DNA from: Candidatus Zixiibacteriota bacterium
GTDB taxonomy: Bacteria; Zixibacteria; MSB-5A5; GN15; FEB-12
Reading direction: 5' to 3'
Assembly: GCA_036826635.1 (NCBI GenBank)
Contig: DAISVY010000012.1
Span: 9,170 to 73,169 of the forward strand
DNA length: 64,000 nucleotides
Positions 13,820 to 45,209 of this stretch are shown one piece after another. The notes beneath the pieces were generated by a model. It was not told the origin of the DNA and made no database searches. It saw only the letters and a program-made list of their open reading frames with translations. The translations under genes and the position numbers were made by a program. The number at the start of each line of letters is the position of its first letter. Position 1 is the first letter of the stretch.

Positions 13820-13821
13820 TC

Positions 13822-24993: not shown

Positions 24994-24997
24994 CCGC

Positions 24998-25966: not shown

Positions 25967-26023
25967 AATCCGTGGTCCGTTCCGAGGATTTCTTTAACCG
26001 TCGGAACCCTCAGATAGCCTTTC

Positions 26024-27960: not shown

Positions 27961-28038
27961 GAATGTACGCCTAATAGGATTTGTCTAATGGCATGTATTG
28001 TGGCAAGCTGAGATACCACAGGCAAAGAAAGGGCAGAA

Positions 28039-28950
28039 TTGCAGATTTCGATAAGCGGCCTCACCAAACGCTACCCCGGAGGTAAATATGCCATCAGGGA
28101 TATTGATCTGAACATCGGCAGCGGCATGTTCGGACTTCTCGGCCCCAATGGCGCCGGCAAAACCACCCTGATGCGAATTCTGGTCACGATGCTCAAACCG
28201 ACCACCGGGCAGGTTCTGGTCGACGGGATGGACCTGCAGAAACACCGCCGCCAGATTCGCAAGATGGTCGGGTACCTGCCGCAGGATTTCAGCACGTTTT
28301 CGAAACTGGCCGTCTGGGAATTTCTGGATTACGCCGGATCGCTCAGCGGTCTGCGCAATCGCAAAGAGCGTTCGGCCCAGGTGGACCGACTGCTCGACAG
28401 CGTGGGGCTTTTTGACGTCCGTGACCGACGAGCCGACAAGTTATCGGGCGGCATGAAGCGACGCCTCGGGATCGCCCAGACTTTGGTGGGTGATCCCAAA
28501 ATCATGGTCGTCGACGAGCCTACGGTCGGTCTTGATCCTCAGGAGAGACTGCGCTTTCGCAACCTCATGGCCGACCTGACCCGACAGGACATCATCATCA
28601 TTCTGTCCACCCATATCGTGGGTGATATTTCTTCAACCTGTACCGACATGGCCCTTCTGAACACGGGCAAGATCGTATTCAACGGTCCGCCTACCGATCT
28701 GGTGACAGCCGCCAAAGGACGGGTATGGAAAGTCTCCGCTTCGGATCAGGAATTAGACAACCTCAAGGAACGTTACCCGGTTATATCGACCGTACCTGCC
28801 GAGCACGGATATGAAGTTCGACTGGTCGCCGATGAAGTCGCCGGCAAAGCGGCCGAACCGGTGGAACCGAACCTGGAAGATGCGTACATTCTATACATGC
28901 AATCGGTCGGCTACGATGTCGATCTGGAGGCAGGAGTCAACGAATGGTAA
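28039..28950 (+). CDS. ABC transporter ATP-binding protein (ABC-2/DrrA-like type)
   Basis: Walker A GPNGAGKTT, Q-loop YLPQD, signature LSGGMKRRLGIA, Walker B IMVVDEPTVGLD, H-loop STHIV. TTG start as in the track. Confidence 0.88.
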   Translation: MQISISGLTKRYPGGKYAIRDIDLNIGSGMFGLLGPNGAGKTTLMRILVTMLKPTTGQVLVDGMDLQKHRRQIRKMVGYLPQDFSTFSKLAVWEFLDYAGSLSGLRNRKERSAQVDRLLDSVGLFDVRDRRADKLSGGMKRRLGIAQTLVGDPKIMVVDEPTVGLDPQERLRFRNLMADLTRQDIIIILSTHIVGDISSTCTDMALLNTGKIVFNGPPTDLVTAAKGRVWKVSASDQELDNLKERYPVISTVPAEHGYEVRLVADEVAGKAAEPVEPNLEDAYILYMQSVGYDVDLEAGVNEW

Positions 28951-28971
28951 TCGGACAAGGAGTTCCCGTTC

Positions 28972-31900
28972 ATGGTTGATCTTTGGGCCGTATGGTGTGT
29001 TGCTCGCTACGAAGCCAAACTGCTTTTTCGCTCGTGGGCTTTTCGAATTTTTACGATACTCGGCCTGACTATTCTCGTTTTTATGAACATTGGGCTGGGA
29101 ACCTCCATCGGGAGCTCTCCCTTCTTCTTTCATTCCTTTGCAGGCTCACTGCCGCTGACCAACATAAAACTGCTCAACATATACCAGGGAATAATTGCGG
29201 CCTTCCTGGCGACGGAATTCATCAAGCGTGACCGGCGCCACGACTCCACGCAGGTCGTTCTGGCTCGTTCGTTTTCGAATGTCGATTATATCCTCGGCAA
29301 AGTCATCGGTATCCTGGCTGTCTTTGCGGTCCTGAACATTCTGGTCCTGGCTTTCGGCTTTGTCATCCACGCTTTCTTCTCGTCCTCGCCGTTTGCCTGG
29401 CAACCTTATATTCTTTACCCGCTGTTGATAAGTCTGCCGACGCTGGTATTCATAATCGGAGTTTCCTTCGTACTGATCACGTTGCTTCGCAGTCAGGCTA
29501 TCGTGTTCGTTATAATGCTGGGGTATTCGCTGCTCGTACTCATTCTTCTCGGCCCCAAGCTCTTCTGCATATTCGACAGTTACGCTTTTTACCAACCGCT
29601 GGTCTACTCCGACTTTATCGGACTGGGCAACACGGGCGAGGTGCTTCTGCTGCGCGGGGCATATCTGCTTGTCGGTATCGGGCTGATTTCACTGACAGCC
29701 CTTACTCTGAAGCGTCTGCCGCAGTCACAAACCGGCAATGTCCTCGCCGGCGCACTGGCCGTGGTCTGCTTTGCAACGTCCCTGATTCTGGGAACGGTTT
29801 ATATGCACGATCACTATGCCCAGCGTGATTTTCGGGAACAGCTTAGAAATACCAGCGCCGCCGTGGTGGAAATACCCACCGTCATGGTTACCGACTGCAA
29901 TCTGGAAATAGAACACGAAGGGACCGTTATCACCGGCAAAGCTTCTCTGGCTGCGGTCAATCACAGCCAGCAACCGCTGGATTCTTTGCTGTTCACTCTC
30001 AATCCCGGTTTGGAAGTGTCCAAAGTCACGTCGGCCACCGGCGATGTCGCTTTCACCCGCAACCGGCACCTTCTCTGGATAAAACCCGACGCCGCTCTGC
30101 TTCCCGATGACTCCGTTGCTCTTACAATCGTATACAGCGGGCGGGTGGACAGCCGGTATTGTTATCTGGATATCGATGACGAACGGGTGGAAGGCTATTA
30201 CCAACTGTGGCTGTACTCCATACCCAAGCAATACGTACAAAGCGAGACAGACTGCGTTCAACTTACACCGGAAGCCGGATGGTATCCGATTGCGAGCCTC
30301 TCCCCCGGCACGGCTTTCCCCGCCGCCACGACCCGCGACTACGCTCATTATTCTCTCAGAGTCACGGTAGACGAAGAATTGACAGCCATATCGCAAGGTC
30401 AAACCGAGATTGAGCAAACCGACGGCAACAAGACATACACTTTTCGGGAAACGTCCCGGCTGCCCCAGATTTCTCTGACGATAGGTCGCTATGACCGACG
30501 CGAGATAGTGGTCGACAGTATTGTTTATTCGCTGTACACGTTGCCGGGGCACGATTTCTTCAGCCCTTATTTCGATCAGATAACCGACACCCTGCCTCAT
30601 CTGATCCGGGATTTGAAAAACGAATATGAAACGGCTCTCGGTTTCGAATATCCCTATGACAAACTTGACCTGGTCGAGGTACCCCTTCAGTTTTATAGTT
30701 GTCGGCGTCTCTGGACCACCGCTCAGGAAATGGTCCAGCCGCAAATAGTGTTTATCCCGGAGTCGGGGACGCTGTGCGCCGGGGTCGATTTCCAACAGAT
30801 GAAACGCCGCGATGAACACCGGCAGGAGCGAGCCAATCAGGCCGATAGCCCCCTGGAAATTCAGGCCCGATATTTCGCGAGTTTTGCCCGCACGGACCTT
30901 CTCGGTCTGGAAGGCAGTGGCTGGAGTGTAAGAAATAATCCGAACATCGAACCGCGCATGGAGATATTCCCGAACTTCATATCATATGCCAGTCAGGTAT
31001 CTTCGGCCCGGTGTCCGGTTCTTAACTACGCTTTCGAGGCCTATTTCAAAGATAAGGTAACCGTGCCGGAAGACCCGCACTGGCGCTCATGGCTCGGTTT
31101 GACCGATGTCGAACGCGCCAATCTGATCCTGCAAAAACAACCGCTGGTCAACGTAATCAGTGACTCCGAGCTTGAGCCGGGCACTATTGCCAACGTCCTG
31201 GAAGCCAAAGGCGGTTACCTGCTGACCATACTGGAGGCGCGAGTCGGCGAAGAAACCTTCACCTCGGCCATAGCCGATTTCCTGACCGAACACCGCTTCC
31301 GGAACATTCACGAAGAGGACCTCGACGCATTCGCCGCAAGCCTCGGGCAGGACAATCTGGCCGCCATCATAGACGCCTGGTACCGCGACACTCTCCTGCC
31401 GGGTTATCTCATAGATGACATAGAGAGCTATGGCGTGGTCGATGGCGAACGCACGCGCACCCAGTTCAAATGTCGCCTGACCAATCCCACGACTGTCGAC
31501 GGCGTGGTAGCGCTGACCCTTCGCTACCGCATGCAGCGTGGCGGCGGTATGGGTTGGTGGATGCGCATGGAAAATGACGCAGACTTCTCACAGAAATTGC
31601 TTATACCGGCGATGTCCAGTCGTTACGTCGGCCTGGTGCTGGATGACCCTCTGGCCGAGATGACTATTGACACGTACGTTTCGCAAAACATTCCGTCACT
31701 GGTATCTCACCATTTCCGGGATCAAGACCTTCGCCAGGGAGCACAACCGTACAGCGGCGACTCGCTGGTATCCCTCGGCGACACCTCGCCGACCGAAGAA
31801 GGGCTGGTGGTTGACAACGAGGACAGCGGCTTCGAAATAATGAGTCACACCGAAGAGAGCTGGTTGCGTACCGCTCTGCTTAGCTTGTTCGGAGTGAAAA

Positions 31901-32346
31901 GTTCCGACGATCCGTACGTTGGTTTCAACGCCTGGCGACCGCCCAGCAACTGGAGCGCCACCACCGACAACCAATTTTTCGGACGGTTTATCCATTCCGC
32001 TTATTACAAGAAATCAGGCGATGGTGACAGCAAAGCCGCGTGGAACACCCGGATAGACCAGGCGGGCGATTATGACGTCTACTACTACTGTGAGGGCCAG
32101 ACACACAGGCCACCGATGTTCCGGCGACCCGAACCGGGCAGACGTATGGATAGTGGCGAGAAACATTTCCTGGTATACCACGAAGACGGAGTAGAAGAAA
32201 TATCCCTGGACCTGAACGGTGTGGATGACGGCTGGAATCATCTGGGAACATTCAGACTGGCCGAAGGGGCCAACCGCATCGAACTGACGGATCAAAACGA
32301 ACTGGAATACGTCACCGCCGACGCCGTCAAGTGGGTCAGGCACTGA
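28972..32346 (+). CDS. ABC-2-type permease fused to an M1-aminopeptidase-like ectodomain (no HExxH) and a golvesin-like C-terminal domain
   Basis: 1124 aa. Residues 1 to about 300 contain 6-7 hydrophobic helices. From about residue 310 there is an M1 N-terminal beta-sandwich-like region (CNLEIEHEGTVITGKASLAAVN...LLFTLNPGLEV) and a catalytic-domain-like KLDLVEVPLQF, but no GAMEN or HExxH anywhere in the ORF. The last 140 aa or so (...AWNTRIDQAGDYDVYYY...GWNHLGTFRLAEGANRIELTD...VTADAVKWV) resemble golvesin/Xly C-terminal domains. Confidence 0.7.
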   Translation: MVDLWAVWCVARYEAKLLFRSWAFRIFTILGLTILVFMNIGLGTSIGSSPFFFHSFAGSLPLTNIKLLNIYQGIIAAFLATEFIKRDRRHDSTQVVLARSFSNVDYILGKVIGILAVFAVLNILVLAFGFVIHAFFSSSPFAWQPYILYPLLISLPTLVFIIGVSFVLITLLRSQAIVFVIMLGYSLLVLILLGPKLFCIFDSYAFYQPLVYSDFIGLGNTGEVLLLRGAYLLVGIGLISLTALTLKRLPQSQTGNVLAGALAVVCFATSLILGTVYMHDHYAQRDFREQLRNTSAAVVEIPTVMVTDCNLEIEHEGTVITGKASLAAVNHSQQPLDSLLFTLNPGLEVSKVTSATGDVAFTRNRHLLWIKPDAALLPDDSVALTIVYSGRVDSRYCYLDIDDERVEGYYQLWLYSIPKQYVQSETDCVQLTPEAGWYPIASLSPGTAFPAATTRDYAHYSLRVTVDEELTAISQGQTEIEQTDGNKTYTFRETSRLPQISLTIGRYDRREIVVDSIVYSLYTLPGHDFFSPYFDQITDTLPHLIRDLKNEYETALGFEYPYDKLDLVEVPLQFYSCRRLWTTAQEMVQPQIVFIPESGTLCAGVDFQQMKRRDEHRQERANQADSPLEIQARYFASFARTDLLGLEGSGWSVRNNPNIEPRMEIFPNFISYASQVSSARCPVLNYAFEAYFKDKVTVPEDPHWRSWLGLTDVERANLILQKQPLVNVISDSELEPGTIANVLEAKGGYLLTILEARVGEETFTSAIADFLTEHRFRNIHEEDLDAFAASLGQDNLAAIIDAWYRDTLLPGYLIDDIESYGVVDGERTRTQFKCRLTNPTTVDGVVALTLRYRMQRGGGMGWWMRMENDADFSQKLLIPAMSSRYVGLVLDDPLAEMTIDTYVSQNIPSLVSHHFRDQDLRQGAQPYSGDSLVSLGDTSPTEEGLVVDNEDSGFEIMSHTEESWLRTALLSLFGVKSSDDPYVGFNAWRPPSNWSATTDNQFFGRFIHSAYYKKSGDGDSKAAWNTRIDQAGDYDVYYYCEGQTHRPPMFRRPEPGRRMDSGEKHFLVYHEDGVEEISLDLNGVDDGWNHLGTFRLAEGANRIELTDQNELEYVTADAVKWVRH

Positions 32347-32361
32347 TACAAAAGGACCGCT

Positions 32362-33894: not shown

Positions 33895-33904
33895 GAGAAA
33901 ACGC

Positions 33905-34963
33905 ATGAGACGCTGGCAAACTTCACTCATGCTGTGTGTTACCATAACCGTCATGGCGGGCTGCGGTGACCAGGGTCCGGATATTGACATCGAATCCTCG
34001 ATACCGGTGCGGGTCGAGGAAGTAACAGCCGGTCCCATGAAGGAGTATGCCTTCGCTACCGGCACCCTGGTAGCGGCCGAGGAAGCGACACTCGACGTCC
34101 AGCAATCCGGATACTACCATTTGCAAACCAACCCGCGCACCGGCACCACGTTTGCCATGGGAGATCAGGTCCGAAAAGGGGACACGATCATTACACTCCA
34201 AAACGCCGAATTCGAAAACCAGGTGGCGATTGATTCCAAGAAACTCAATCACGAAATCTCCGAACGTGAATTCGAAAAACAAAAAGGCCTCTACGAAAAA
34301 GGCGGCGTGACGATGCGTGAATTGGCCGACGCGGAACAGTCGTTTATCGATGCCCGCTACGCATACGAAAACGCCAAGCTGCAACTGGCCAAATTGCAGA
34401 TCGTGGCCCCGTTCGACGGCATACTGGTCGATCTGCCTTTCTACAGCCCGGGCCAGTTGGTTGAATCCGACGCTACCATGGCCCAGATAATGGATTACAG
34501 ACACCTGTATGCGGAAGTTACACTGCCGGGGAAAGAGATGGAGCGCGTCGAGCGTGGTCAGACGGCCATCGTCACCAACTACGCCGACCCGCTTGACACT
34601 CTCACCGGCCAGGTTACGCAGGTGTCACCGACACTGGACCCCGACAACCGCATGTTCAAACTGACGCTTGAGATAGATAACGACAGCCTCTCTTTCCGCC
34701 CCGGCATGTTCGCCAAAATAGATATAGTCGTCGAAGAACGCGATTCCACGCTGGTCATCCCCAAGGATATCATCCAGGAACGCCACGGCGCCCAAACCGT
34801 GTTCGTGGTAGACAAAGGGATAGCGGTCGAGCGACGTATCGAGACAGGCCTGTCCAACCGTGAGCAGGTAGAAGTTGTCAACGGTCTGGAAGCCGGTGAC
34901 CGACTCGTCGTTGAGGGTTTCGAGACCCTGCGTCATCGCTCCAAGGTCAAGGTAACCAAGTAA
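33905..34963 (+). CDS. Efflux RND periplasmic adaptor (membrane-fusion protein), lipoprotein
   Basis: Lipobox-like VTITVMAGC; alpha-hairpin region (YENAKLQLAKLQIVAPFDGIL); beta-barrel/MP domains (RPGMFAKIDIVV...VFVV...VERRIETG). AGGAG RBS. Confidence 0.85.
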   Translation: MRRWQTSLMLCVTITVMAGCGDQGPDIDIESSIPVRVEEVTAGPMKEYAFATGTLVAAEEATLDVQQSGYYHLQTNPRTGTTFAMGDQVRKGDTIITLQNAEFENQVAIDSKKLNHEISEREFEKQKGLYEKGGVTMRELADAEQSFIDARYAYENAKLQLAKLQIVAPFDGILVDLPFYSPGQLVESDATMAQIMDYRHLYAEVTLPGKEMERVERGQTAIVTNYADPLDTLTGQVTQVSPTLDPDNRMFKLTLEIDNDSLSFRPGMFAKIDIVVEERDSTLVIPKDIIQERHGAQTVFVVDKGIAVERRIETGLSNREQVEVVNGLEAGDRLVVEGFETLRHRSKVKVTK

Positions 34964-34982
34964 CCGACGGGCGGAATTCGAC

Positions 34983-37900
34983 ATGTATAAGCTGGCTCGC
35001 TTTTCCGTTAAATATCCCACCACCGTTCTCATGGTGGTCCTGGCCGTTATCCTTCTCGGTTACATTTCGTTCAGCCGTCTGGGCGTCGACCTCTTCCCCG
35101 ACCTCAACAGCCCTCGTCTTTTCATCGAGATCGAAGCCGGTGAACGCCCGCCGGAGGAAATGGAGCAGCAGTTCGTCACCCAGATGGAAGCGGTAGCGGC
35201 CCGCGGAAACGGCGTGATCAATGTTTCTTCCATCTCTCGGGTCGGACAGGCGCTTCTGACGGTTGAATACACGTGGCAGACCGACATGGACGCAGCTTTT
35301 CTGGACCTTCAGAAACTGGTCGCCGATTTCACTCAGAACAGCGAGGCCGACGAGATAACCGTCTCCGAACATGATCCCAACGCCGACCCCGTGGTGGTAG
35401 CGGTCTTTTCGCACCCTGAGATCGACGATCTGGACAAACTGCGCCAGACAGCCGAAAACATTATTCGCAACGAACTGATCCGTCTCCCGGACGTGGCGGC
35501 GGTGGATATCGTCGGGGCTCGTGAGCGGGAAGTTGAAATCCTGACCGATCCCTACACGCTGGAAGCACACGGATTGACCGCCTCGCAACTCGCTTCAACC
35601 ATAAGCAGCGCCAATCGCAACATGTCGGGCGGTTCAATCGTGGAAATGGGCATTCGTTATGTCCTGCGCGGGGTGGGAGAATTCACTTCCGAAGACGACA
35701 TCCGTAATCTGATCGTCGCCTACGAAACGCAAGAAGAGACCGGACAACCGCTCAAACGCATCCCCACGTATCTGCGGGAAGTGGCGGAAGTACACACCGT
35801 CCTGAGTGAACCGGAGAATATCGTACGCTATAACGGCCAACGCTGTCTGGCTCTTGAAGTGTTCCGGGAAGCACGGGCCAATACGGTCGATGCGGCTGCC
35901 AGTACCGTTGAGCAACTGGAAAAACTGGGGCGTTCGTTGCCGGGGTATGAACTTCGCGTGATTCAGAATCAGGCCGGTTTTATCAAGTCGGCCATCACCG
36001 AAGTCGAAGAAACCGGACTGATCGGCATTATCCTGGCCGTGTTGGTGTTGTACCTTTTTCTCCGTCGCATCGGCGTCACCGTGATCATCAGTCTGGCCAT
36101 TCCGATTTCCATTATAGCAACTTTCAACCTGATGTTCTTCAATGACCTTTCTCTGAACATCATGACTTTGGGAGGCCTGGCGCTTGGCGCCGGCATGCTT
36201 GTCGATAACGCCATTGTCGTAATGGAAAACGTGTTCCGACATCTCGAAGAAGGCAAACCGCTTACCGAAGCAGCCGTATTGGGAGCCGGCGAAGTCGGCG
36301 GAGCTATCACCAGTTCCACCCTTACCACCGTCGTCGTGTTTCTCCCCATCGTTTATCTGCACGGGGCGGCGGGCGAACTCTTCCGCGACCAGGCCTGGAC
36401 TGTCGCCTATTCGCTGATCTCTTCCCTCTTCGTGGCCCTGGCCGTGATTCCCATGCTCTGCTCGCGCCTGTTGAAACGCGGGAATCGAAGCGTCCCCACC
36501 AGTTCCGTCAGTTTCCCCGGCTATGGCAGATTCCTGCAAAAAATCTTAAAGCGACGCGGCTTAGTCATTACGGCGAGCCTGGTGCTGGTAATCTTAACCG
36601 CCCTGTTAATTCCGACCATCGGCAGCGAATTCATGCCTCGCGCCGACCAGGGCGATTTGTATATCAATCTGACCCTGCCCGAGGGTACCAGTCTCGAACG
36701 CACCGAGGGAACCGTGCGTAATCTCGAAGCCGTCATAGACCAGAAGTACGGCTCACAACTCAGCAATATATATTCGCGAGTGGGACCATCAGGGACATCG
36801 ACAAGTGAGCTTGAAGCGCTCAGTGACGAAAACAGCGCCGTGATGTACCTGACACCGGCTGTCGACAGCGACCTGCCCACCGACGAACTCGCCGCCGGCA
36901 TTGAACGCGAACTGGAAAAACTGCCCGACGTGGAATCGCAACTGACGGTGCAACAAACGGCCCTGCAATCAATCCTGGGGACCAGCTCCGCCCCTCTGGT
37001 AGTGGAGATAAAAGGCAAAGAACTCGACGAACTTTCGCGGCTGACCGACAGCGTATACGCCCGCCTGTCCCCGATGAGTGAACTGGCCAATATCGAGACG
37101 AGCTTCGAGCAGGGCCGCCCGGAAATCGATATCGTTGTGGATCGAACGGTGGCCACCCAATTTTCTCTCACCGTCGAAGAAGTGGGTTCGCAGGTACACG
37201 ATATTCTCTCCGGCACCGAAAGCGGAGAAATGGAAATCAATGGTGAATACGCCGACATCATTGTCCGCGGCCCGGATGTGTCACTAACCGAACTGGCCGG
37301 CATCATGCTGGAGACCTCATCGGATCGCCGTGTCAGACTGGACGAGGTAGCTCGACTGGTCCCGGCTGTCTCCCCCCGCGAAATCAACCGCAATAACCAG
37401 ACAAGGGTAGCCACGGTGAGCGCCAGCCTGGTTGGCGACGCGCCTTTCGACAAGGTAGCAACAGCCGTCAAAAAAGCCATCGCCGACGTGCCGCTCCCGC
37501 AGCAGTATTCGTTCGCCGTAACCGGCGAGGAAGAGCTTCGGCAGGAAGCCTTCGGCAATCTGGAATTCGCCCTGCTTCTGGCCGTCATACTGGTGTACAT
37601 GGTCATGGCCGCTCAGTTCGAATCGCTCCTGCACCCGTTCGTAATTCTTCTGACCATTCCGCTGGCCGGGGTGGGCGCCGTGCTGCTTCTGCTCATTCTC
37701 GGCATGCCGCTGAATATCATGTCTTTCATCGGTATGATCATGCTGGCCGGTATAGCCGTAAACGACTCGATCATCCTGGTGGACCGCATAAACCAAAATC
37801 GCCGGGGCGGACAGGATCTCGACAAGGCCATCATCAACGCCGGTCAGACGCGTATCCGACCGATCATCATGACCAGCGTTACGACTATTTTGGCGCTGCT

Positions 37901-38078
37901 GCCGCTCACCATCGGTCTCGGTGAAGGGGCATCATTGCGGGCTCCCATGGCGGTGGCGGTTATCGGCGGGCTGATCACTTCAACCGCCCTGACCCTGGCC
38001 GTCATACCGACGGTATATCACCTTCTGGCCGGTAAAGTACGGATTGAAACGGAGTCCACCACCCGGGCGCAGATATGA
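34983..38078 (+). CDS. RND (AcrB/HAE-type) efflux permease
   Basis: 1031 aa with a 12-TM, two-large-loop layout. Family blocks: ALGAGMLVDNAIVVMENV, MLAGIAVNDSIILVD, GQTRIRPIIMTSVTTILALLPL. Confidence 0.9.
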   Translation: MYKLARFSVKYPTTVLMVVLAVILLGYISFSRLGVDLFPDLNSPRLFIEIEAGERPPEEMEQQFVTQMEAVAARGNGVINVSSISRVGQALLTVEYTWQTDMDAAFLDLQKLVADFTQNSEADEITVSEHDPNADPVVVAVFSHPEIDDLDKLRQTAENIIRNELIRLPDVAAVDIVGAREREVEILTDPYTLEAHGLTASQLASTISSANRNMSGGSIVEMGIRYVLRGVGEFTSEDDIRNLIVAYETQEETGQPLKRIPTYLREVAEVHTVLSEPENIVRYNGQRCLALEVFREARANTVDAAASTVEQLEKLGRSLPGYELRVIQNQAGFIKSAITEVEETGLIGIILAVLVLYLFLRRIGVTVIISLAIPISIIATFNLMFFNDLSLNIMTLGGLALGAGMLVDNAIVVMENVFRHLEEGKPLTEAAVLGAGEVGGAITSSTLTTVVVFLPIVYLHGAAGELFRDQAWTVAYSLISSLFVALAVIPMLCSRLLKRGNRSVPTSSVSFPGYGRFLQKILKRRGLVITASLVLVILTALLIPTIGSEFMPRADQGDLYINLTLPEGTSLERTEGTVRNLEAVIDQKYGSQLSNIYSRVGPSGTSTSELEALSDENSAVMYLTPAVDSDLPTDELAAGIERELEKLPDVESQLTVQQTALQSILGTSSAPLVVEIKGKELDELSRLTDSVYARLSPMSELANIETSFEQGRPEIDIVVDRTVATQFSLTVEEVGSQVHDILSGTESGEMEINGEYADIIVRGPDVSLTELAGIMLETSSDRRVRLDEVARLVPAVSPREINRNNQTRVATVSASLVGDAPFDKVATAVKKAIADVPLPQQYSFAVTGEEELRQEAFGNLEFALLLAVILVYMVMAAQFESLLHPFVILLTIPLAGVGAVLLLLILGMPLNIMSFIGMIMLAGIAVNDSIILVDRINQNRRGGQDLDKAIINAGQTRIRPIIMTSVTTILALLPLTIGLGEGASLRAPMAVAVIGGLITSTALTLAVIPTVYHLLAGKVRIETESTTRAQI

Positions 38079-41000
38079 TTGAACGCATTATCAGACGGCC
38101 GATTCTCGTGGCCATGATAATCATCGGGCTTTGCCTGCTGGGTGTCGTTTCGTATACCAAACTGCCCGTGGAGCTCATCCCCTATACGGAACTGCCGATG
38201 CTGGTCGTGCAGGTAAGCACCGCGCTCGACGCCGATCCCGACTACGTGGAAAAACACGCCATCATCCCGCTCGAAAGTGCTATTGCCGGACTCGAAGATA
38301 TCGAGAGCATCGAATCGTACATCGATCGCCGTCGCGCCATTATCTTTGTTTATTACCATCAAAATTCCGATGCCAAATACGCCTATCTCAAGCTTCAGGA
38401 ACGGGTCGAAAGCGCCCGCTCGTTATTGGGTGACGACTTCTACGCCAGCGTCCTGAAAATCGACACCGAACAACTTTCCAATCAATTCATGTCACTGCAG
38501 GCCAGAGGCGAGGGTGATCTCGATCAGATACGGGAAGTGGTGGACGAAGAAATAACCGAAGAGCTGGAGAAAATAGACGGTATCGCCAGTGTTGCCGTCT
38601 ACGGCGGTCGACAGCACTCTATCGAAGTCGTTCTCGACGAAGGAGCATTGCGCTCGCACAATATCACCGCTTCCCAGGTTTCTTCCAAAATCAGCGGCGG
38701 GACTGCCGACCGCCAGTATCTGGGCCAGGCTATCGAAGGGAACAAGCAGTATTTCGTCAACCTGACCGCCGACTATACGGCTGTTCCGGCCCTTGAGGAT
38801 ATTGTCATCAAGGAAGAAGGTCCGGTTCTTCTCAAACACGTGGCCACGATCATCGACGGCGGCGCGGAAGAAGAGACAATTTCCCGCGTCAATGGTATGG
38901 AATCGATTTCCATTTCGCTTGTCCGTGATCAACAAGCCAACCTTCTCAGCCTTTCTCGCGAGACACGCCGGGAGATCGAGCACCTGAATAAAAAAGTGGC
39001 AGCCACCGGGGTGGAACTGGTCATTCAAAGCGACTCGGCCGAAGAGATCGAAGAGAATATAGAAGTCATCAAGATGCTGGCCCTTATAGGCGGCCTGCTG
39101 GCGGTGGTGGTTCTGTGGTTGTTTCTCCGCAATCTTCCCCTGGTTCTGGTAGTGGCGGCATCGATACCGATATCGGTACTCATATCGTTGAATTTCTTCT
39201 ACGCCTTCGACATCACGATCAACACCCTCACGCTGGTGGGTATAGCTATCGCCATCGGCATGCTCATCGACAACAGCGTCGTTGTCCTGGAGAACATTCA
39301 CCGCAAAGTGGCCCACGGCAATACCCCCTATCGGGCGGTCGTGGACGGAACCCACGAGGTCTGGCGGGCGGTATCGGCGGCCACTCTTACCACCGTCTGC
39401 GTCTTCGTCCCGTTCATCTTCTCCAACAGTTTTCTGGTTAAGACATTAGGCCGACACGTCGGCATATCGATTATCTCGACTCTCCTGGTGTCACTTGGCG
39501 TGGCTTTCGTCCTGATACCTCCCGCGACTTATTATTTCCTCTCTCGCAAGAAAGGCCGGGTGGAATCTTTCAACGTCATATCTCAGAAGAACCGACTACA
39601 GCAAATCTATACCCTGTTGCTCAAGTCGTGCCTGAGATTCCCGGCCCGAACACTGATTGTCAGTGTGGTGGTTTTCTTCGCCAGTGTGCTTATCTGTCTG
39701 GCCGTAAGTATCAACGTCCCCGAGGAAGTGGAACTGGACGAATTCAATCTCTACGCCACCATGCCGTCCGGGACAACACTGGCCACGGCCGACGAGCAGG
39801 TTAAAGAGATGGATCAGCGGTTGAGTGATATCGCCGAGCTCAAAGAACGTCGGGCCAACATCGAAGAAGACAACATCGTGTTTACGTTCGAGCTGAAGGA
39901 AGACTACGAAGATATCGCCCGGCGTAATCTCAGCGAGGTCAAGGACGAAGTGCTCGAGAAACTTTCCAACGCCTATCCCCTGATCGACTTCACATATGAG
40001 GAACCGGCTTCCGACGTCCGTTTCCGGGGCGGTGGCGGCGGCGGTCAGGGCATGCGCGGTTTCACTCGTTTGCTCGGTATCGGCACATCCGAGGAGAGCG
40101 TCGTTATTCGGGGACAGGATTTGGGGATGCTGCGCTCCATCGCCGAAGACGTTCGTTATAACCTCGATAACCTGGAAACCATCAAGAGCACGCAACTTTC
40201 GGTTACCGAACACGATCCCGGCATAGATCTGCTGCTTGATCAGTCGGCCATGCGTCATTTCAACGTCGGGTCGGCCAATATCATCGCCGAACTGTCCGGT
40301 TTTCAAAGCGAGGTTTCCTCGGGAGTAACGCTCAAACGCGGGACCGACGAAATAGATATCATCCTCAAAAAGAACGAACTGGAAGACAAAACTTCCGACG
40401 ATCTCAGAGAACTTGAGGTGGCCGGAGGCGACGGCGGCACGGTGCCGATAGTACAACTCGCACGATTCCTTTACACCAGCGGCACGTCCAACATCAACCG
40501 CGTAAATCAGGAAAAAGAAGTTTCGGTCGTTTATCGCTTTGAGGATGATGTCGAAAGTTCCAAACCGTTACTGGAAAACGCTCGCCTCACCGTGGACGAA
40601 ATAGCGGCCGGAATAAGCCCGCCGTCGGGAGTGGCCATCGAGGTGGTCCACGACGAGACCGATCTCTCGGAGTTCTATTTTCTCATTTTCGCGGCCGTGA
40701 TTCTTATATACATGATTCTGGCCTCGGTTTTCGAGTCTTTAGCTACCCCGCTGGTCATCATGTTCACTATCCCGCTGGCCACCATCGGTGCCCTTTGGGG
40801 ACTGATTCTGACCGGCAACTCGATCCTTAACGCCAATTCGATCATCGGCCTGTTTATCCTTCTTGGGGTGGTGGTCAACAACGGCATTATTCTGATCGAT
40901 TATTCGCGTCTGCTTCGCCGGCAACGCATGCGCCCGGGCAGGGCCTTGATCACCGCCGGACAGGCACGAATCAGACCGATCCTCATCACCGCCATCACCA

Positions 41001-42772
41001 CCGTGCTGGCCATGCTGCCACTGGCTATGGGCAAGGCCGAGTACGTGGCCAAAATCGGAGCACCTTTCGCTATCGTCGTCATTGGCGGACTGAGTTTCGG
41101 TACGCTGTTCACACTACTGTTAATTCCGACAGTATCCTTCGGAACCGATAATGCCATGGCCTGGTGGCGACAGTTGAGCGGCCGCAACAAAGCAATCCAG
41201 ACAGCGGTTCTGATCATCGGCGTATTCCTTATTTACAAGAATATCGACTCGTTCCTCTGGCAAATGGTCGACCTGATCGCTCTTCTGGCCGTCATCCCGG
41301 CCTTTACGTATTTCACCCAGACGAGCCTGCGACGAAGCCGTCGAGCCATTATCCCGACCGGCGATTCCATTACCATCACCATCCGCAACGTCGTCAAGGT
41401 CTACGACGATTTCTCCCGGTTCGTCCGCGAATGGCGCAAAGGGGAACGCCAGCATCAGCATGGCTCACCCGATGAACCGGTAAAGAACCGTGACCTGCTG
41501 CTTACCCGGATGTGGCAGCTTCCCCTGTATGTTTTCCTGTTCTACTTTACATATTTGTATCTGGAGAGCGGGTTCTGGATTTTCGTCTTCTCGGTCGTGT
41601 TTTACATCTATTCGCTTAATCTCTGGCGACCGCTGTTGCTGACGAGTGGAATATCAACCGGGAAGTGGCGATGGCCTCGAACACGCCGGTGGTTGTACAA
41701 ACTGATTTTCTGGCTGGGCCCGTTGCTCAATCTGATCTGGTTCAAACTTACCTGGTCCGGTCTGGCGCTGGTCATTGTTCTGGGATTTGCCTGGTATCTG
41801 GCGGCCTTGACTTACAACACTTCATCGCGCCTCTATCGGAAGCGGATCGATATCAATCGTCTTACCGGACGATTCGTCAGGATTCGCAAATTCTTCTATC
41901 GACTGGTCAAAGCCACGCCTCTGATCGGAAAACGCCGGGTTCCGTTTGTCGCTCTGAATCAGGTGTCAATGGAGATCGGCAGCGGCATGTTCGGACTTGT
42001 CGGTCCCAACGGGGCAGGCAAAACAACGCTCATGCGGGTTATTTGCGGGATTCTTCCGCCGGCTCGCGGCACGGTAAAAATCAATGGTATCGATCTGGTC
42101 AAACAACGCGAGGAACTTCAGTCGCTCATCGGCTACCTGCCACAGGAATTCGGCACCTACGAGAATATGACAGCTTACCAGTTTCTGGATTACCAGGCGC
42201 TTCTGAAAGGCCAGTGGAATGACCGACAGCGGCGGGAAACGGTAGAGAAAGCTATTCATTCGGTCCATCTCGAGGACAGCCGCAACACGAAAATAAAGTC
42301 TTTCTCCGGAGGCATGAAACAGCGCGTCGGTATCGCCCAGACGCTGTTGCACCTGCCGCGTATTATGGTGGTGGACGAACCGACCGCAGGACTGGACCCG
42401 CGCGAACGGATTCGGTTCAGGAACCTTCTGTCGGAACTGGCGCGGGACCGCGTTGTTATTTTCTCGACTCACATCATTGAAGACATCTCCAGCAGTTGCA
42501 GCCGACTGGCCGTGCTGGATGATGGTGCGGTCAAATTCCTGGGCTCTCCCAGGGAAATGGTGGAACTGACCAGAGGCTATGTCTGGCAGGCCCAGATAGC
42601 CCGGGAGCAGTTCGAAAAAGTACGGAACAACCTGCGGATAGTGCACCACATGCGCGACGGCGATCTTATCAGAGTAAGGGTACTCGCGTCCAAACAGCCG
42701 CTGACCGAAGCTATCGAGGTAACCCCGACGCTGGAGGATTCGTACCTTTGGTTACTGAATCAACAAGGGTAG
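38075..42772 (+). CDS. RND efflux permease fused C-terminally to extra TM helices and an ABC ATPase domain (hybrid RND-NBD protein)
   Basis: An uninterrupted 1565-codon ORF; ATGA overlap with the preceding RND gene. Residues 1 to about 1030 are a complete RND layout (IAIGMLIDNSVVVLENI, LLGVVVNNGIILID, GQARIRPILITAITTVLAMLPL). Residues about 1040-1095 add two more hydrophobic helices. Residues 1099-1565 form an ABC NBD: ITITIRNVVKVYDD, then a 176-aa insertion, then Walker A GPNGAGKTT (nt 42002-42028), YLPQE, SGGMKQRVGIA, MVVDEPTAGLD and STHII. Confidence 0.8.
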   Translation: MIERIIRRPILVAMIIIGLCLLGVVSYTKLPVELIPYTELPMLVVQVSTALDADPDYVEKHAIIPLESAIAGLEDIESIESYIDRRRAIIFVYYHQNSDAKYAYLKLQERVESARSLLGDDFYASVLKIDTEQLSNQFMSLQARGEGDLDQIREVVDEEITEELEKIDGIASVAVYGGRQHSIEVVLDEGALRSHNITASQVSSKISGGTADRQYLGQAIEGNKQYFVNLTADYTAVPALEDIVIKEEGPVLLKHVATIIDGGAEEETISRVNGMESISISLVRDQQANLLSLSRETRREIEHLNKKVAATGVELVIQSDSAEEIEENIEVIKMLALIGGLLAVVVLWLFLRNLPLVLVVAASIPISVLISLNFFYAFDITINTLTLVGIAIAIGMLIDNSVVVLENIHRKVAHGNTPYRAVVDGTHEVWRAVSAATLTTVCVFVPFIFSNSFLVKTLGRHVGISIISTLLVSLGVAFVLIPPATYYFLSRKKGRVESFNVISQKNRLQQIYTLLLKSCLRFPARTLIVSVVVFFASVLICLAVSINVPEEVELDEFNLYATMPSGTTLATADEQVKEMDQRLSDIAELKERRANIEEDNIVFTFELKEDYEDIARRNLSEVKDEVLEKLSNAYPLIDFTYEEPASDVRFRGGGGGGQGMRGFTRLLGIGTSEESVVIRGQDLGMLRSIAEDVRYNLDNLETIKSTQLSVTEHDPGIDLLLDQSAMRHFNVGSANIIAELSGFQSEVSSGVTLKRGTDEIDIILKKNELEDKTSDDLRELEVAGGDGGTVPIVQLARFLYTSGTSNINRVNQEKEVSVVYRFEDDVESSKPLLENARLTVDEIAAGISPPSGVAIEVVHDETDLSEFYFLIFAAVILIYMILASVFESLATPLVIMFTIPLATIGALWGLILTGNSILNANSIIGLFILLGVVVNNGIILIDYSRLLRRQRMRPGRALITAGQARIRPILITAITTVLAMLPLAMGKAEYVAKIGAPFAIVVIGGLSFGTLFTLLLIPTVSFGTDNAMAWWRQLSGRNKAIQTAVLIIGVFLIYKNIDSFLWQMVDLIALLAVIPAFTYFTQTSLRRSRRAIIPTGDSITITIRNVVKVYDDFSRFVREWRKGERQHQHGSPDEPVKNRDLLLTRMWQLPLYVFLFYFTYLYLESGFWIFVFSVVFYIYSLNLWRPLLLTSGISTGKWRWPRTRRWLYKLIFWLGPLLNLIWFKLTWSGLALVIVLGFAWYLAALTYNTSSRLYRKRIDINRLTGRFVRIRKFFYRLVKATPLIGKRRVPFVALNQVSMEIGSGMFGLVGPNGAGKTTLMRVICGILPPARGTVKINGIDLVKQREELQSLIGYLPQEFGTYENMTAYQFLDYQALLKGQWNDRQRRETVEKAIHSVHLEDSRNTKIKSFSGGMKQRVGIAQTLLHLPRIMVVDEPTAGLDPRERIRFRNLLSELARDRVVIFSTHIIEDISSSCSRLAVLDDGAVKFLGSPREMVELTRGYVWQAQIAREQFEKVRNNLRIVHHMRDGDLIRVRVLASKQPLTEAIEVTPTLEDSYLWLLNQQG

Positions 42773-42776
42773 CGTT

Positions 42777-43523
42777 ATGATACAGTCGACGACATCTTCC
42801 CCCGCCTCACAAACGAGCCTTCTCTCCGGTCTTCGGAGTCTGGTAGCTTTCTTCCGGTACAACGCCACTCACGTTTTCGCGGGGAAATTCATCTATTTCC
42901 TGGCCCTGGGGATCGGGATTTTCATTCTCGTGACGGTAATATACGTTTTGGACAGCAGCACCCCGCCGGATGCCGAGGCCATTTACTACTTTCTTTTGGT
43001 CCCGGGGGTATTGTTGATTTTCTATCCGTCGGCCTATTCCATTCAGAGCGACGTCGACAGCCGCATGATAGAAACGCTCTTCGGTATTCCCGACTACCGT
43101 TACAAAGTCTGGCTGGCCCGAAACATCACCATGTATCTGGTCGTGACCGCCCTGCTGTTTTTACTGGCGTTGTTTTGCCGACTGACGATGGCCGATTTTT
43201 CGATATGGTCAATGTCGTTTCAACTCCTGTTCCCGGTGGCGTTCATCGGCAGTCTGGCGTTTATGACCGCAACCATCACGCGCAGCGGCAACGGCACCGC
43301 CGTCATCATGGTGATAATCCTTCTTGTCTTCTGGATTGCCGCCGAACCGCTCGAGGGCAGCCGCTGGAATCTGTTTCACAACCCCTTCACTCAGGTGGAT
43401 CAGTTCGAGACTTTTTTGTGGGCGGAGACGACGCTTTATAACCGCATTTACCTGCTGACAGGTGCGGCTGTGGCCACCATGTTCGGTCTGCTGCGTCTGC
43501 AACGTCGCGAGAAATTGATCTGA
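42777..43523 (+). CDS. ABC-2-like six-TM permease
   Basis: 248 aa with about six hydrophobic helices. It starts 4 nt after the NBD-bearing gene, and its size and position match the membrane partner of an ABC-2 ATPase. I saw no diagnostic motif. Confidence 0.5.
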   Translation: MIQSTTSSPASQTSLLSGLRSLVAFFRYNATHVFAGKFIYFLALGIGIFILVTVIYVLDSSTPPDAEAIYYFLLVPGVLLIFYPSAYSIQSDVDSRMIETLFGIPDYRYKVWLARNITMYLVVTALLFLLALFCRLTMADFSIWSMSFQLLFPVAFIGSLAFMTATITRSGNGTAVIMVIILLVFWIAAEPLEGSRWNLFHNPFTQVDQFETFLWAETTLYNRIYLLTGAAVATMFGLLRLQRREKLI

Positions 43524-45206: not shown

Positions 45207-45209
45207 ATG

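What the first reader, a model, noticed from the sequence alone, without database searches (positions are those of the whole stretch)
28039..43523. A 15.5-kb co-directional operon nests a TolC-MFP-RND-RND efflux core between two ABC-2-type half-systems
Gene order with tiny gaps (21, 15, 10 and 19 nt, a 4-nt overlap, then 4 nt): NBD; ABC-2 TMD fused to a large ectodomain; TolC; adaptor; RND-1; RND-2 fused to an NBD; ABC-2-like TMD. The two NBDs are clear paralogs, sharing long blocks: GSGMFGL(L/V)GPNGAGKTTLMR, GYLPQ(D/E)F, SGGMK(R/Q)R(L/V)GIAQTL, MVVDEPT.GLDP.ER(L/I)RFRNL. Each is adjacent to a polytopic permease. This gives two ATP-driven ABC-2 modules, two RND permeases, one adaptor and one outer-membrane channel in a single transcription unit, with one NBD physically attached to an RND subunit. 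Inference: either a composite envelope-spanning exporter using both PMF and ATP, or an ABC system that regulates or loads an RND pump. The large ectodomain on the first permease suggests a polymer or peptide substrate or a surface-associated function.
Basis: partly seen in the sequence, partly recalled or inferred. Interest (0 to 1): 0.8.

Follow-up and report, generated by a model that had tools for sequence, protein, structure and literature searches.

The report
RND efflux pump fused to ABC ATPase
This is a conserved seven-gene cassette in which a proton-driven RND efflux pump is physically fused and always co-inherited with an ATP-driven ABC-2 transporter module, a hybrid that is widespread in sediment and gut bacteria but that I could not find described anywhere.

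Summary
Seven co-directional ORFs lie at 28039-43523 with the stated gaps, bounded by oppositely oriented genes.

- **Products:** NBD1; an ABC-2 permease with a periplasmic ectodomain; a TolC-like OMF; a lipoprotein adaptor; RND1; RND2 fused to NBD2; and a second ABC-2 permease.
- **The fusion is real.** Full-length homologues of about 1550-1590 aa occur in Bacteroidota (including cultured Marivirga, Prolixibacter, Draconibacterium and Parabacteroides), Calditrichaceae and Latescibacterota. Partial fused hits come from Zixibacteria, Aminicenantes and Spirochaetales.
- **Synteny is strict.** Gene order is colinear in 42 of 42 loci. A natural split variant cuts the fusion at a domain boundary.
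- **New anatomy.** RND2 is tethered by six extra TM helices. The NBD2 first strand and A-loop sit about 190 aa upstream of the rest, separated by a four-TM insertion found only in this family. The ectodomain has an M1-aminopeptidase fold with no zinc site (a pseudo-peptidase) plus a CBM-like Golvesin_C domain. Both RNDs have a reduced proton relay (DD/K to DN/N).

Functional coupling of the ABC and RND parts is strongly supported. The mechanism is inference: most likely a hard-wired ABC-to-RND export relay, possibly built on a single heterodimeric ABC. I found no literature on it. I rate it a new variant of known kinds, of high interest.

The parts
27404..28038 (.). Upstream intergenic region (635 nt) between the divergent rnfC gene and g1; presumed promoter region
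   Evidence: RnfC lies on the minus strand at 26024-27403. No Rfam match. Promoter-like hits do not exceed chance.
28039..28950 (+). g1: NBD1, a stand-alone ABC ATPase (303 aa; Walker A K41, Walker B E160, H192) with a C-terminal regulatory domain
   Evidence: Pfam ABC_tran 6e-33. Best NCBIfam hits are drrA and GldA, both below cutoff. ATPase motifs are conserved in orthologues.
28972..29859 (+). g2 N-terminal part (aa 1-296): interface helix plus 7 TM helices, an ABC-2 (NosY-like) permease domain
   Evidence: AF2 model with pLDDT 87. Sub-threshold ABC2_membrane_2/4/5 hits in the window protein and orthologues. PF12679 hits and JGI NosY-type names in homologues. Positive-inside analysis gives N-in, C-out.
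29869..31401 (+). g2 ectodomain, M1-aminopeptidase-like fold (aa ~300-810) lacking the zinc site: a pseudo-peptidase
   Evidence: Foldseek matches IRAP, ERAP1, ERAP2, PSA and F3 over ~650 columns, E ~3e-19. No HExxH or GxMEN in 81 family members. Partial Pfam Peptidase_M1 hit.
31408..32346 (+). g2 C-terminal beta-sandwich (aa 813-956) and Golvesin_C / CBM-like domain (aa 992-1122)
   Evidence: Pfam Golvesin_C 2e-11. The all-beta segments appear in the AF2 model. The golvesin C-terminal domain is classed as CBM6-CBM35-CBM36-like in PMC9166713.
32362..33894 (+). g3: TolC-family outer-membrane factor (510 aa) with a signal peptide
   Evidence: Pfam OEP 5.7e-48, two repeats. TIGR01844 and TIGR01845 hits are below cutoff. 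N-terminal hydrophobic segment.
33905..34963 (+). g4: periplasmic adaptor (MFP, 352 aa), a lipoprotein (lipobox ..MAGC, Cys20)
   Evidence: TIGR01730 RND_mfp scores 195 bits, above the 94.9 cutoff. N-terminal sequence shown.
34983..38078 (+). g5: RND1 permease (1031 aa); TM4 Asp408, TM10 Asn927, TM11 Arg957
   Evidence: ACR_tran 1e-220, full length. Motif conservation.
38075..41134 (+). g6 aa 1-1020: RND2 permease core; TM4 Asp399, TM10 Asn935, TM11 Arg965; variable Gly-rich loop at aa ~645-665
   Evidence: ACR_tran 1e-153. Closest solved structure is MdtB 9lyq, 6.6e-71, with an alignment of TM4, TM10 and TM11. 28% identical to RND1. Loop shown.
41180..41335 (+). g6 aa 1036-1087: extra TM hairpin (TM13-14) after the RND core
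   Evidence: Helices 16-36 and 40-67 of the AF2 model. Conserved W1062, P1075, F1080 and S1084-L1085. This hairpin stays with RND2 in the split variant.
41375..41404 (+). g6 aa 1101-1110: displaced first beta-strand and A-loop Tyr1110 of NBD2 ('ITIRNVVKVY')
   Evidence: Strand E81-90 in the AF2 model, pLDDT ~89. The family consensus I.i..LvKiY matches the solo-NBD beta1 consensus l.i..l.K.y. It is the first element of the 483-aa split form.
41516..41839 (+). g6 aa 1148-1255: four-TM insertion (two hairpins) inside NBD2
   Evidence: AF2 helices. Hydropathy and charge distribution. In the representative library this region matches complete proteins only of the 1550-1590 aa fusion class.
41945..42772 (+). 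g6 aa 1291-1565: NBD2 core plus C-terminal regulatory domain (Walker A K1316, Walker B E1435, H1466)
   Evidence: ABC_tran 9e-31. 43% identical to g1. Foldseek top hits are TM_1403, NosF and ABCA NBDs. Motifs are conserved.
42777..43523 (+). g7: second ABC-2 permease (248 aa, interface helix plus 6 TM)
   Evidence: Orthologues hit ABC2_membrane_3 (4.9e-6) and families 4, 2 and 5. Conserved motifs RYNxK and QNDxDxRxLExLFGIPxYRYK. Present directly after the fusion in 36/36 loci.

Best explanation
The seven genes encode one envelope-spanning export machine with two energy inputs.

**RND conduit.** RND1 and RND2 are both MdtB/C-like. With one lipoprotein adaptor and a TolC-like channel, they form the route from periplasm to outside. 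This route is presumably proton-driven, through the retained TM4 Asp and TM11 Arg.

**ABC-2 module.** A NosFY/ABCA-type ABC-2 module is held against this pump because NBD2 is covalently tethered to RND2 by six extra TM helices. The module has NBD1 with the g2 permease and NBD2 with the g7 permease. It is most economically read as a single heterodimeric ABC.

**Proposed sequence of events.** ATP hydrolysis moves or extracts the substrate from the cytoplasm or inner membrane to the periplasmic face. There the g2 ectodomain (a dead M1-peptidase cavity plus a CBM-like domain) captures it and hands it to the RND porter for expulsion. This is a hard-wired two-step relay.

**Shown versus inferred.** The parts, their conservation, the fusion and its split form, the intact ATPase motifs and the dead peptidase are shown. 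The periplasmic location of the ectodomain is predicted from the model and charge distribution. The stoichiometry, the direction of transport, the hand-over and the substrate (a peptide- or glycan-bearing amphiphile is the best guess) are inferred.

The confidence of 0.4 is for the relay mechanism. For the weaker claim that the ABC and RND parts work together as one system, I put confidence at about 0.85.
For: **Linkage**
- Gene order is colinear in 42/42 loci. Each gene is present wherever the sequence reaches: g1 10/10, g2 32/32, g3 33/34, g4 35/36, g5 36/36 and g7 36/36.
- No other neighbour is conserved.
- Searching from g2 gives the same cassette.

**Fusion**
- About 30 full-length homologues occur among GTDB species representatives, including cultured strains.
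- The linker is under purifying selection.
- In the representative library, the complete proteins it matches are all of the fusion class.
- A natural split into adjacent genes falls at the predicted domain boundary.

**ATPases**
- All catalytic motifs are canonical and conserved in both NBDs.

**ABC-2 identity**

**Ectodomain**
- The AF2 model is confident (pLDDT 87, pTM 0.85).
- A seventh TM helix and the positive-inside pattern place the ectodomain in the periplasm.
- It has an M1 fold with no zinc site.

**RND**
- Both proteins are full-length ACR_tran, and the TM4 Asp and TM11 Arg are invariant.
- Paired RND genes with one adaptor resemble MdtABC. MdtBC is a known heterotrimer (PMC8277102).

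**Heterodimer hint (weak)**
- There are two distinct NBDs and two distinct TMDs.
- Residual rate covariation between NBD1 and NBD2 is r = 0.32, the highest value between separate polypeptides.
- An ABC heterodimer avoids the mismatch between a two-fold ABC and a three-fold RND trimer (my inference).
Against: - No experiment, transcript data or multimer model supports any step of the relay.
- NosDFY, the closest structural relative of the NBD, is understood to be a periplasmic copper-delivery machine rather than a trans-membrane transporter (my knowledge of the NosDFY structural work; PDB entries 7o0y and 7osf). A non-transporting mechanotransducer is therefore equally natural.
- Both RNDs lack the D408/K940 pair of the canonical HAE-1 relay, so proton coupling is not assured.
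- Homology between the g7 and g2 TMDs is not significant by hhalign (E = 0.077).
- The rate-covariation signal rests on 15 taxa and could merely reflect two domains of the same type.
- The Latescibacterota variant lacks an OMF gene in the cassette.
Confidence: 0.4

Rival explanations
1. Mechanotransducer or loader model. The ABC-2 module carries nothing across the inner membrane. As in NosDFY, MacB, LolCDE and FtsEX, cytoplasmic ATP hydrolysis drives conformational changes in the periplasmic g2 ectodomain. The ectodomain then captures a periplasmic or outer-leaflet substrate (a peptide or glycoconjugate) and loads it into the RND. Alternatively it gates or assembles the RND-MFP-OMF pump.
For: - The NBD fold is closest to TM_1403 and to NosF of NosDFY.
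- The g2 TMD is NosY-like by source names and PF12679 hits.
- The large periplasmic domain is fused directly to the permease.
- A dead peptidase fold suits a binding or clamping role.
- RND pumps normally take substrate from the periplasm or outer leaflet (established knowledge of AcrB-type pumps).
Against: - It does not explain why a second, ectodomain-less ABC-2 permease (g7) with its own NBD is strictly conserved.
- It does not explain why that NBD, rather than the ectodomain-bearing half, is the part tethered to RND2.
- There is no direct evidence.
Confidence: 0.3
2. ATP-assisted or ATP-driven RND. The reduced proton relay means that RND2, or the RND1/RND2 trimer, no longer cycles on proton flux alone. 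NBD2, dimerising with NBD1 or with itself, transmits ATP-driven motion through the six-TM tether to the RND transmembrane domain. This would make a primary-active or ATP-gated RND pump.
For: - The NBD is covalently tethered to TM12 of RND2 through conserved TM helices.
- The D408 and K940 equivalents are replaced by Asn or other polar residues in both RNDs across the family.
- The four-TM insertion within the NBD is unique to this family. It could act as a force-transmitting element.
Against: - The D407 and R971 equivalents are invariant in both RNDs. This fits a working single-Asp proton relay.
- RND1, which has no NBD, shows the same substitutions.
- The split variant shows that covalent linkage is dispensable.
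- The presence of two complete ABC-2 TMDs argues that the NBDs serve their own permeases.
- No precedent exists.
Confidence: 0.12
3. Independent neighbours. Two ordinary ABC-2 transporters and an ordinary RND pump sit side by side, perhaps co-regulated for a shared stress, without forming a complex. On this view the fusion is an evolutionary accident or a gene-calling or assembly artefact.
For: - Every component belongs to a known, independently functional class.
- NBD plus permease/M1 pairs exist alone in other genomes, for example Winogradskyella L072.
Against: - The order is colinear in 42/42 loci spanning several phyla, with no other conserved neighbours.
- Full-length homologues of the fused ORF recur in independent assemblies and isolates.
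- The linker is conserved and family-specific.
- The g2 subfamily (pseudo-M1 plus Golvesin_C) lay in this cassette in every context examined.
- The split form remains adjacent.
Confidence: 0.05

Closest known systems
MdtABC-TolC (E. coli), a tripartite RND pump with two different RND subunits (MdtB2C heterotrimer) and one adaptor
   Same: Two adjacent, divergent RND genes (28% identical) sit with a single MFP and an OMF. MdtB is the closest solved structure to RND2. Both RNDs score on the MdtB and MdtC NCBIfam models.
   Different: - The scores are far below the equivalog cutoffs (395 and 267 bits against 1584).
- The TM4 DD and TM10 K of MdtB are DN and N here.
- RND2 carries six extra TM helices and an ABC NBD.
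- The cassette adds two ABC-2 permeases and a second NBD.
NosDFY (ABC-2-type machine of nitrous-oxide reductase maturation; PDB 7o0y, 7osf)
   Same: The NBD with its C-terminal domain is among the best structural matches. The permease is NosY-like. Both couple an ABC-2 core to a large periplasmic module.
   Different: - The periplasmic module here is fused to the permease. It is an M1-like pseudo-peptidase plus a CBM-like domain, not a NosD beta-helix.
- There is no nos gene context.
- There are two different NBDs and two different TMDs.
- The module is linked to an RND pump.
YbhGFSR and RbbA-YhhJ-YhiI (E. coli), ABC-2 exporters with two different permeases and an MFP adaptor
   Same: An ABC-2 core with two non-identical TMDs and two NBD units is encoded with a periplasmic adaptor. 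RbbA is among the NCBIfam hits of both NBDs. YbhFSR is described as an efflux system in PMC7190983.
   Different: - Those systems contain no RND permease.
- Their two NBDs are fused to each other, not to another transporter.
- They have no large ectodomain.
Stand-alone 'NBD + ABC permease/M1 aminopeptidase' gene pairs (for example Winogradskyella, locus L072)
   Same: The NBD is of the same subfamily (42% identical). It is followed by a permease of about 1190 aa fused to an M1 domain.
   Different: - The stand-alone form keeps the HEMGH zinc motif and a full Peptidase_M1 match.
- The cassette form has lost it in all 81 members checked.
- The cassette form adds Golvesin_C and is always embedded in the RND cassette.
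MacAB-TolC, a tripartite ABC efflux pump
   Same: An ATP-driven permease with a periplasmic domain works with an MFP and TolC. The idea of mechanotransmission applies to both.
   Different: MacB has a four-TM FtsX-type (type VII) fold with an N-terminal fused NBD. Here the permeases are 6-7 TM ABC-2 types, and an RND is present.

Membership tests
Tripartite RND efflux system (HAE-1-like) | RND permease with 12 TM helices and two large periplasmic loops (full-length ACR_tran) | tested here: met
   g5 matches ACR_tran at 1e-220 (model positions 2-1020 of 1021). g6 matches at 1e-153 (positions 1-1015).
Tripartite RND efflux system (HAE-1-like) | Cognate periplasmic adaptor and outer-membrane factor in the same operon | tested here: met
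   g4 scores 195 bits on TIGR01730, above the 94.9 cutoff. g3 scores 164 bits on OEP, above the 22 cutoff.
Tripartite RND efflux system (HAE-1-like) | Canonical proton-relay quartet (AcrB D407, D408, K940, R971) | tested here: not met
   The alignment to MdtB shows only the D407 and R971 equivalents. D408 is replaced by N and K940 by N in both RNDs, and this is conserved across orthologues.
NCBIfam NF033617 RND_permease_2 / MdtB / MdtC equivalogs | Score at or above the curated cutoff | tested here: not met
   RND1 scores 623 bits and RND2 460 bits against a cutoff of 1250. On the MdtB model they score 395 and 267 bits against 1584.
MdtBC-type heterotrimeric RND | The two RND subunits assemble into one trimer | not testable with these tools
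   Only the gene arrangement (two RND genes, one MFP) is analogous. No multimer prediction was available.
ABC transporter ATPase (ABC_tran) | Walker A, Q-loop, LSGG signature, Walker B with catalytic Glu, and H-loop all present | tested here: met
   Both NBDs carry all the motifs, and these are conserved in 19 g1 and 33 g6 orthologues.
ABC-2 (type V) permease clan | Six-TM permease matching the ABC2_membrane families | tested here: inconclusive
   All hits are below the gathering scores. g7 orthologues match ABC2_membrane_3 at 4.9e-6 and family 4 at 6e-4. The g2 TMD matches ABC2_membrane_2/4/5 at 4e-5 to 4e-3. Some homologues carry PF12679. g7 against the g2 TMD by hhalign gives E = 0.077.
GldA / DrrA NBD equivalogs | Score at or above the curated cutoff | tested here: not met
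   g1 scores 180 bits on GldA against a cutoff of 402.6, and 196 bits on drrA against 312.
M1 zinc aminopeptidase | M1 multidomain fold | tested here: met
   Foldseek matches IRAP, ERAP1 and ERAP2 at E ~3e-19 over ~650 columns, using a model with pLDDT 87.
M1 zinc aminopeptidase | HExxH(18)E zinc-binding motif and GxMEN exopeptidase motif | tested here: not met
   The motifs are absent in 81 of 81 family members. They are present (HEMGH) in the stand-alone Winogradskyella homologue.
NosDFY | NosD beta-helix partner and nos gene-cluster context | tested here: not met
   There is no NosD-like domain or nos gene in the cassette or its flanks. The resemblance is limited to the NBD fold and the NosY-like TMD.

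The most novel reading that the evidence does not exclude
This would be a true primary/secondary hybrid transporter. ATP hydrolysis by an ABC heterodimer (NBD1 with NBD2) is mechanically coupled to the conformational cycle of an RND trimer whose proton relay has been pared down. The coupling runs through the family-specific six-TM tether and the four-TM insertion that splits NBD2. ATP would then gate or power RND efflux, rather than merely feeding it substrate.
Probability: 0.15. Interest if true: 0.92.

Novelty: new variant of a known kind. Interest (0 to 1): 0.76.

Why it matters
RND pumps and ABC transporters are the two great classes of bacterial efflux machines. They are treated as separate, differently energised systems that cooperate only loosely.

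Here the two are welded together, both genetically and covalently, and the cassette has been kept intact across several phyla. This offers a natural test case for three questions:
- how cytoplasm-to-periplasm and periplasm-to-outside export steps are coupled;
- whether ATP can gate a proton-driven pump;
- what a catalytically dead M1 peptidase does in the periplasm.

The cassette occurs in cultured Bacteroidota (Marivirga tractuosa, Prolixibacter bellariivorans, Draconibacterium mangrovi, Parabacteroides massiliensis), so the questions can be approached experimentally. Thousands of database entries for its parts are currently labelled only 'hypothetical protein' or 'efflux RND transporter permease subunit'.

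Tried and rejected
- **Artefact hypothesis.** I considered a frameshift, a missed stop or a chimera. Full-length fusions in independent genomes and the conserved linker rule it out. The 800-900 aa 'fusions' on long contigs turned out to be frameshift-fragmented genes of long-read assemblies.
- **Recent NBD duplication.** g1 and NBD2 are no closer to each other than to solo NBDs.
- **Active periplasmic aminopeptidase.** No zinc motif is present.
- **Extra 253-aa gene in L089 as a relocated g7.** It is a Spy/CpxP-like periplasmic protein.
- **Conserved neighbours as substrate clues.** I looked for a regulator or a biosynthetic cluster. None exists beyond clade-level synteny.
- **Internal promoters, terminators and riboswitches.** Nothing exceeds chance, and there are no Rfam matches.
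- **Literature.** Four full-text searches and two reviews gave no description of an RND-ABC fusion.
- **Profile-profile test of g7 against the g2 TMD.** The alignment is co-linear but not significant.
- **Rate-covariation analysis for the heterodimer idea.** It gave only a weak signal.
- **Whether the DN/N relay is cassette-specific.** I could not establish this, because only two unrelated RNDs were available for comparison.
- **Source organism.** It was not identified.

Full report
**Observation**

Pfam and NCBIfam assign them as follows:
- g1: ABC ATPase.
- g2: a 1124-aa protein with a hydrophobic N-terminus, a partial Peptidase_M1 hit and a Golvesin_C domain.
- g3: OEP (TolC family).
- g4: RND-type adaptor. 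TIGR01730 scores 195 bits, above its cutoff.
- g5: full-length ACR_tran.
- g6: a 1565-aa protein with full-length ACR_tran (residues 1-1019) and ABC_tran (residues 1294-1438).
- g7: a 248-aa six-TM protein with no hit.

The unit is bounded by a divergent rnfC/rnfD operon upstream and a convergent histidine-kinase/STAS/SpoIIE cluster downstream. Scans for internal promoters or terminators give nothing above shuffled controls, and there are no Rfam matches. The two NBDs are 43% identical. The two RNDs are 28% identical.

**Is the fusion real?**

A search with the g6 C-terminal 545 residues found hundreds of close relatives. Many carry both the ACR_tran and ABC_tran Pfam domains. They come from Zixibacteria, Aminicenantes, Krumholzibacteria, Latescibacterota, Spirochaetales and many Bacteroidales. 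All listed hits were shorter than 1000 aa, which looked odd. Two on long contigs proved to be genes fragmented by frameshifts in long-read assemblies, still sitting in the same cassette.

A scan of one genome per GTDB species returned 34 loci with the fusion, about 30 of them full length (query residues ~1-1560). Cultured strains among them include Draconibacterium mangrovi, Prolixibacter bellariivorans ATCC BAA-1284, Marivirga sericea DSM 4125, Marivirga tractuosa, Parabacteroides massiliensis, Bacteroides sp. 224 and Maribellus maritimus. The set also includes Calditrichaceae and Latescibacterota MAGs.

A phmmer search with the linker alone (g6 residues 1095-1300) against 1.84 billion representative proteins gave 79 hits. 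Every apparently complete one is 1550-1590 aa long with the linker at about 1097-1305. The rest are shorter, mostly fragments, and at least one (526 aa) may be a split form. The linker therefore belongs to this fusion family only.

**Synteny**

I ran tblastn with the seven window proteins against 42 related loci. Order is colinear in 42/42. Each gene is present wherever the fetched DNA reaches its expected position:

| Gene | Present / reachable | Note |
|---|---|---|
| g1 | 10/10 | |
| g2 | 32/32 | |
| g3 | 33/34 | absent in one Latescibacterota genome |
| g4 | 35/36 | the exception is a locus with small genes inserted |
| g5 | 36/36 | |
| g7 | 36/36 | includes one divergent copy found by HMM |

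Starting from g2 instead, three distant homologues on megabase-scale or long contigs lie in the same cassette, next to 1558-1565 aa fusions. No gene outside the seven is conserved next to the cassette.

**A natural split form**

In three metagenomic contigs RND2 (1101 aa) is followed 16 nt later by a separate 483-aa gene and then by g7. The 483-aa product covers the last 86% of the C-terminal query. It therefore starts near the displaced strand described below. This confirms the domain boundary and shows that the two halves stay partners even when unlinked.

**Anatomy of the g6 C-terminal extension**

An AF2 model of residues 1021-1565 (pLDDT 82.6) shows these elements in order:
- a TM hairpin (residues 1036-1087);
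- a ten-residue beta-strand (residues 1101-1110, 'ITIRNVVKVY');
- amphipathic helices;
- four more TM helices arranged as two hairpins (residues 1148-1255);
- the NBD, from residue 1291.

The strand's family consensus, I.i..LvKiY, matches the first strand and A-loop tyrosine of ordinary NBDs of this subfamily, l.i..l.K.y. The NBD core of g6 lacks that element. I infer that NBD2 is split: its first strand lies about 190 residues upstream of the rest, with a four-TM insertion in between. The evidence is the sequence pattern plus DSSP strand assignment in the model. I could not inspect coordinates directly.

Charge distribution fits cytoplasmic placement of the strand, of the loop between the two hairpins and of the NBD. 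Many linker residues are invariant across 22-62 homologues. By Foldseek the NBD is closest to TM_1403, to NosF of NosDFY and to ABCA-family NBDs.

**The two permeases**

Orthologues of g7 give sub-threshold hits to ABC2_membrane_3, 4, 2 and 5 (best 4.9e-6). They share an N-terminal amphipathic 'RYNxK' helix and a 'QNDxDxRxLExLFGIPxYRYK' motif.

The g2 N-terminus gives similar sub-threshold ABC-2 hits. Some homologues carry PF12679, and JGI names them after the NosY-type COG. A profile-profile comparison of the two permeases is co-linear but not significant (E = 0.077).

The g7 family has at least 5158 clusters at 90% identity. Among the 120 best hits, every source name given is 'hypothetical protein'.

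**The ectodomain**

The AF2 model of g2 is confident (pLDDT 87, pTM 0.85). It shows an interface helix and seven TM helices, the last continuing out of the membrane, followed by about 830 residues of folded domains. Positively charged loops alternate in the pattern expected for N-in, C-out topology.

Foldseek aligns about 650 columns with M1 aminopeptidases (IRAP, ERAP1, ERAP2, PSA, tricorn F3) at E ~3e-19. Yet none of 81 family members has HExxH or GxMEN. A stand-alone NBD plus permease-M1 pair in Winogradskyella keeps HEMGH.

The C-terminal Golvesin_C domain belongs to a CBM6/35/36-like class according to PMC9166713. The ectodomain is thus predicted to be a periplasmic pseudo-peptidase with a lectin-like appendage. 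That suits a binding role, not a catalytic one, and hints at a peptide- or glycan-bearing ligand.

**The RNDs**

MdtB (9lyq) is the closest solved structure to RND2 (6.6e-71). The alignment shows three things:
- TM4 'VDD' becomes 'IDN'.
- TM10 'KKN' becomes 'VNN'.
- The TM11 Arg is retained.

RND1 shows the same pattern, and it is conserved across orthologues. The D408-K940 ion pair of canonical HAE-1 pumps has thus been replaced by uncharged polar residues in both subunits, while the D407 and R971 equivalents are invariant. I read this as a reduced but probably functional proton relay. That reading is inference.

RND2 also carries a Gly/Ser-rich loop of variable length at about residues 645-665, which RND1 lacks.

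**The NBD relationship**

In a neighbour-joining tree of 19 g1, 33 NBD2 and 42 stand-alone NBDs, g1 and NBD2 each form a clade but are not sisters. Mean identity is 41% between g1 and NBD2, against 42% between either one and the solo NBDs. All catalytic motifs are canonical in both NBDs, so neither ATP site looks degenerate.

**Mechanism**

What is shown is a self-contained, strictly conserved cassette whose ABC and RND parts are covalently linked. I estimate the probability of functional coupling at about 0.85.

How it works is inference. I favour a hard-wired relay (0.4). The ABC-2 module brings substrate to the periplasmic face, the pseudo-M1/CBM ectodomain holds it, and the MdtBC-like RND with its adaptor and TolC expels it.

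Two distinct NBDs and two distinct permeases are most simply read as one heterodimeric ABC, as in YbhFSR (PMC7190983). A heterodimer would also avoid the mismatch between a dimeric ABC and a trimeric RND. Rate covariation gives only a weak hint: the NBD1-NBD2 residual correlation is r = 0.32 on 15 taxa.

The rivals are:
- a NosDFY/MacB-style mechanotransducer that loads or gates the RND without trans-membrane transport (0.3);
- an ATP-assisted RND (0.12);
- independent neighbours (0.05).

**Novelty**

Full-text searches and two comprehensive reviews gave no description of an RND-ABC fusion or of this cassette. Where sources name the parts, they use generic labels.

Every component belongs to a known kind. 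What is undescribed is the combination, the tether, the split NBD and the pseudo-peptidase permease. I class it as a new variant of known kinds, with a minority reading (a true ATP/PMF hybrid pump) that would be categorically new.

Noticed in passing
window 24998-27403 (minus strand): An Rnf-type electron-transport complex operon (RnfC at 26024-27403, RnfD at 24998-25966) lies divergent from the cassette. Long + strand ORFs overlapping these genes (26072-27586, 24908-26017) have no Pfam hits and are probably spurious.
   Followed up: partly
window 43545-47921 (minus strand): A partner-switching regulatory cluster is convergent on the cassette, only 21 nt from the g7 stop. It comprises a histidine kinase (553 aa), a STAS protein (123 aa), a STAS plus HATPase_c_2 protein (263 aa) and a HAMP-SpoIIE phosphatase (532 aa).
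   Followed up: partly
L089 13694-14455: One lineage has an extra 253-aa gene inserted between g2 and the OMF. It encodes a secreted protein with LTxxQ-type repeats (Spy/CpxP-like) and a long Gly/Met/Arg-rich stretch (GGMRRGRGGPGMRNGGMVGGMSSGGMGGGMGRG). It may be a periplasmic chaperone or a metal-binding accessory protein.
   Followed up: partly
L084 3072-5414: In the split-fusion lineage, a block of small genes, including a Polbeta-type nucleotidyltransferase, is inserted between the gene upstream of RND2 (probably RND1) and RND2. This interrupts the otherwise tight cassette.
   Followed up: no
L034 (Latescibacterota chromosome OZ244847) 1924-15901: This variant cassette lacks the OMF gene, so g2 is followed directly by the adaptor. 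Its g7 is divergent and overlaps the end of the fusion gene. The fusion is only 35% identical to the window's.
   Followed up: partly
window 40007-40069 (g6 aa ~645-665): RND2 carries a low-complexity Gly/Ser-rich loop ('RFRGGGGGGQGMRGF') in its periplasmic porter region. Its length and sequence vary between orthologues, but it is always present. RND1 has no counterpart. It may correspond to an enlarged switch (G-)loop.
   Followed up: partly
window 32362-32500 (g3 N-terminus): The OMF ORF begins with about 24 polar residues before its signal-peptide-like hydrophobic segment. The true start codon may therefore lie downstream of the ATG at 32362.
   Followed up: no
L023 and L050 (same MAG, labelled 'uncultured Eubacteriales'): The closest genome-collection relative of the window cassette (57% identity for the fusion, 64% for g1) comes from a MAG labelled Eubacteriales. 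The cassette encodes TolC and a lipoprotein adaptor. The taxonomic label or the binning is therefore doubtful.
   Followed up: no
L072 9947-14433 (Winogradskyella): A stand-alone two-gene ABC system consists of a 294-aa NBD and a 1193-aa permease fused to an apparently active M1 aminopeptidase (HEMGH). It is itself an uncharacterised architecture and a probable evolutionary relative of g1-g2.
   Followed up: partly
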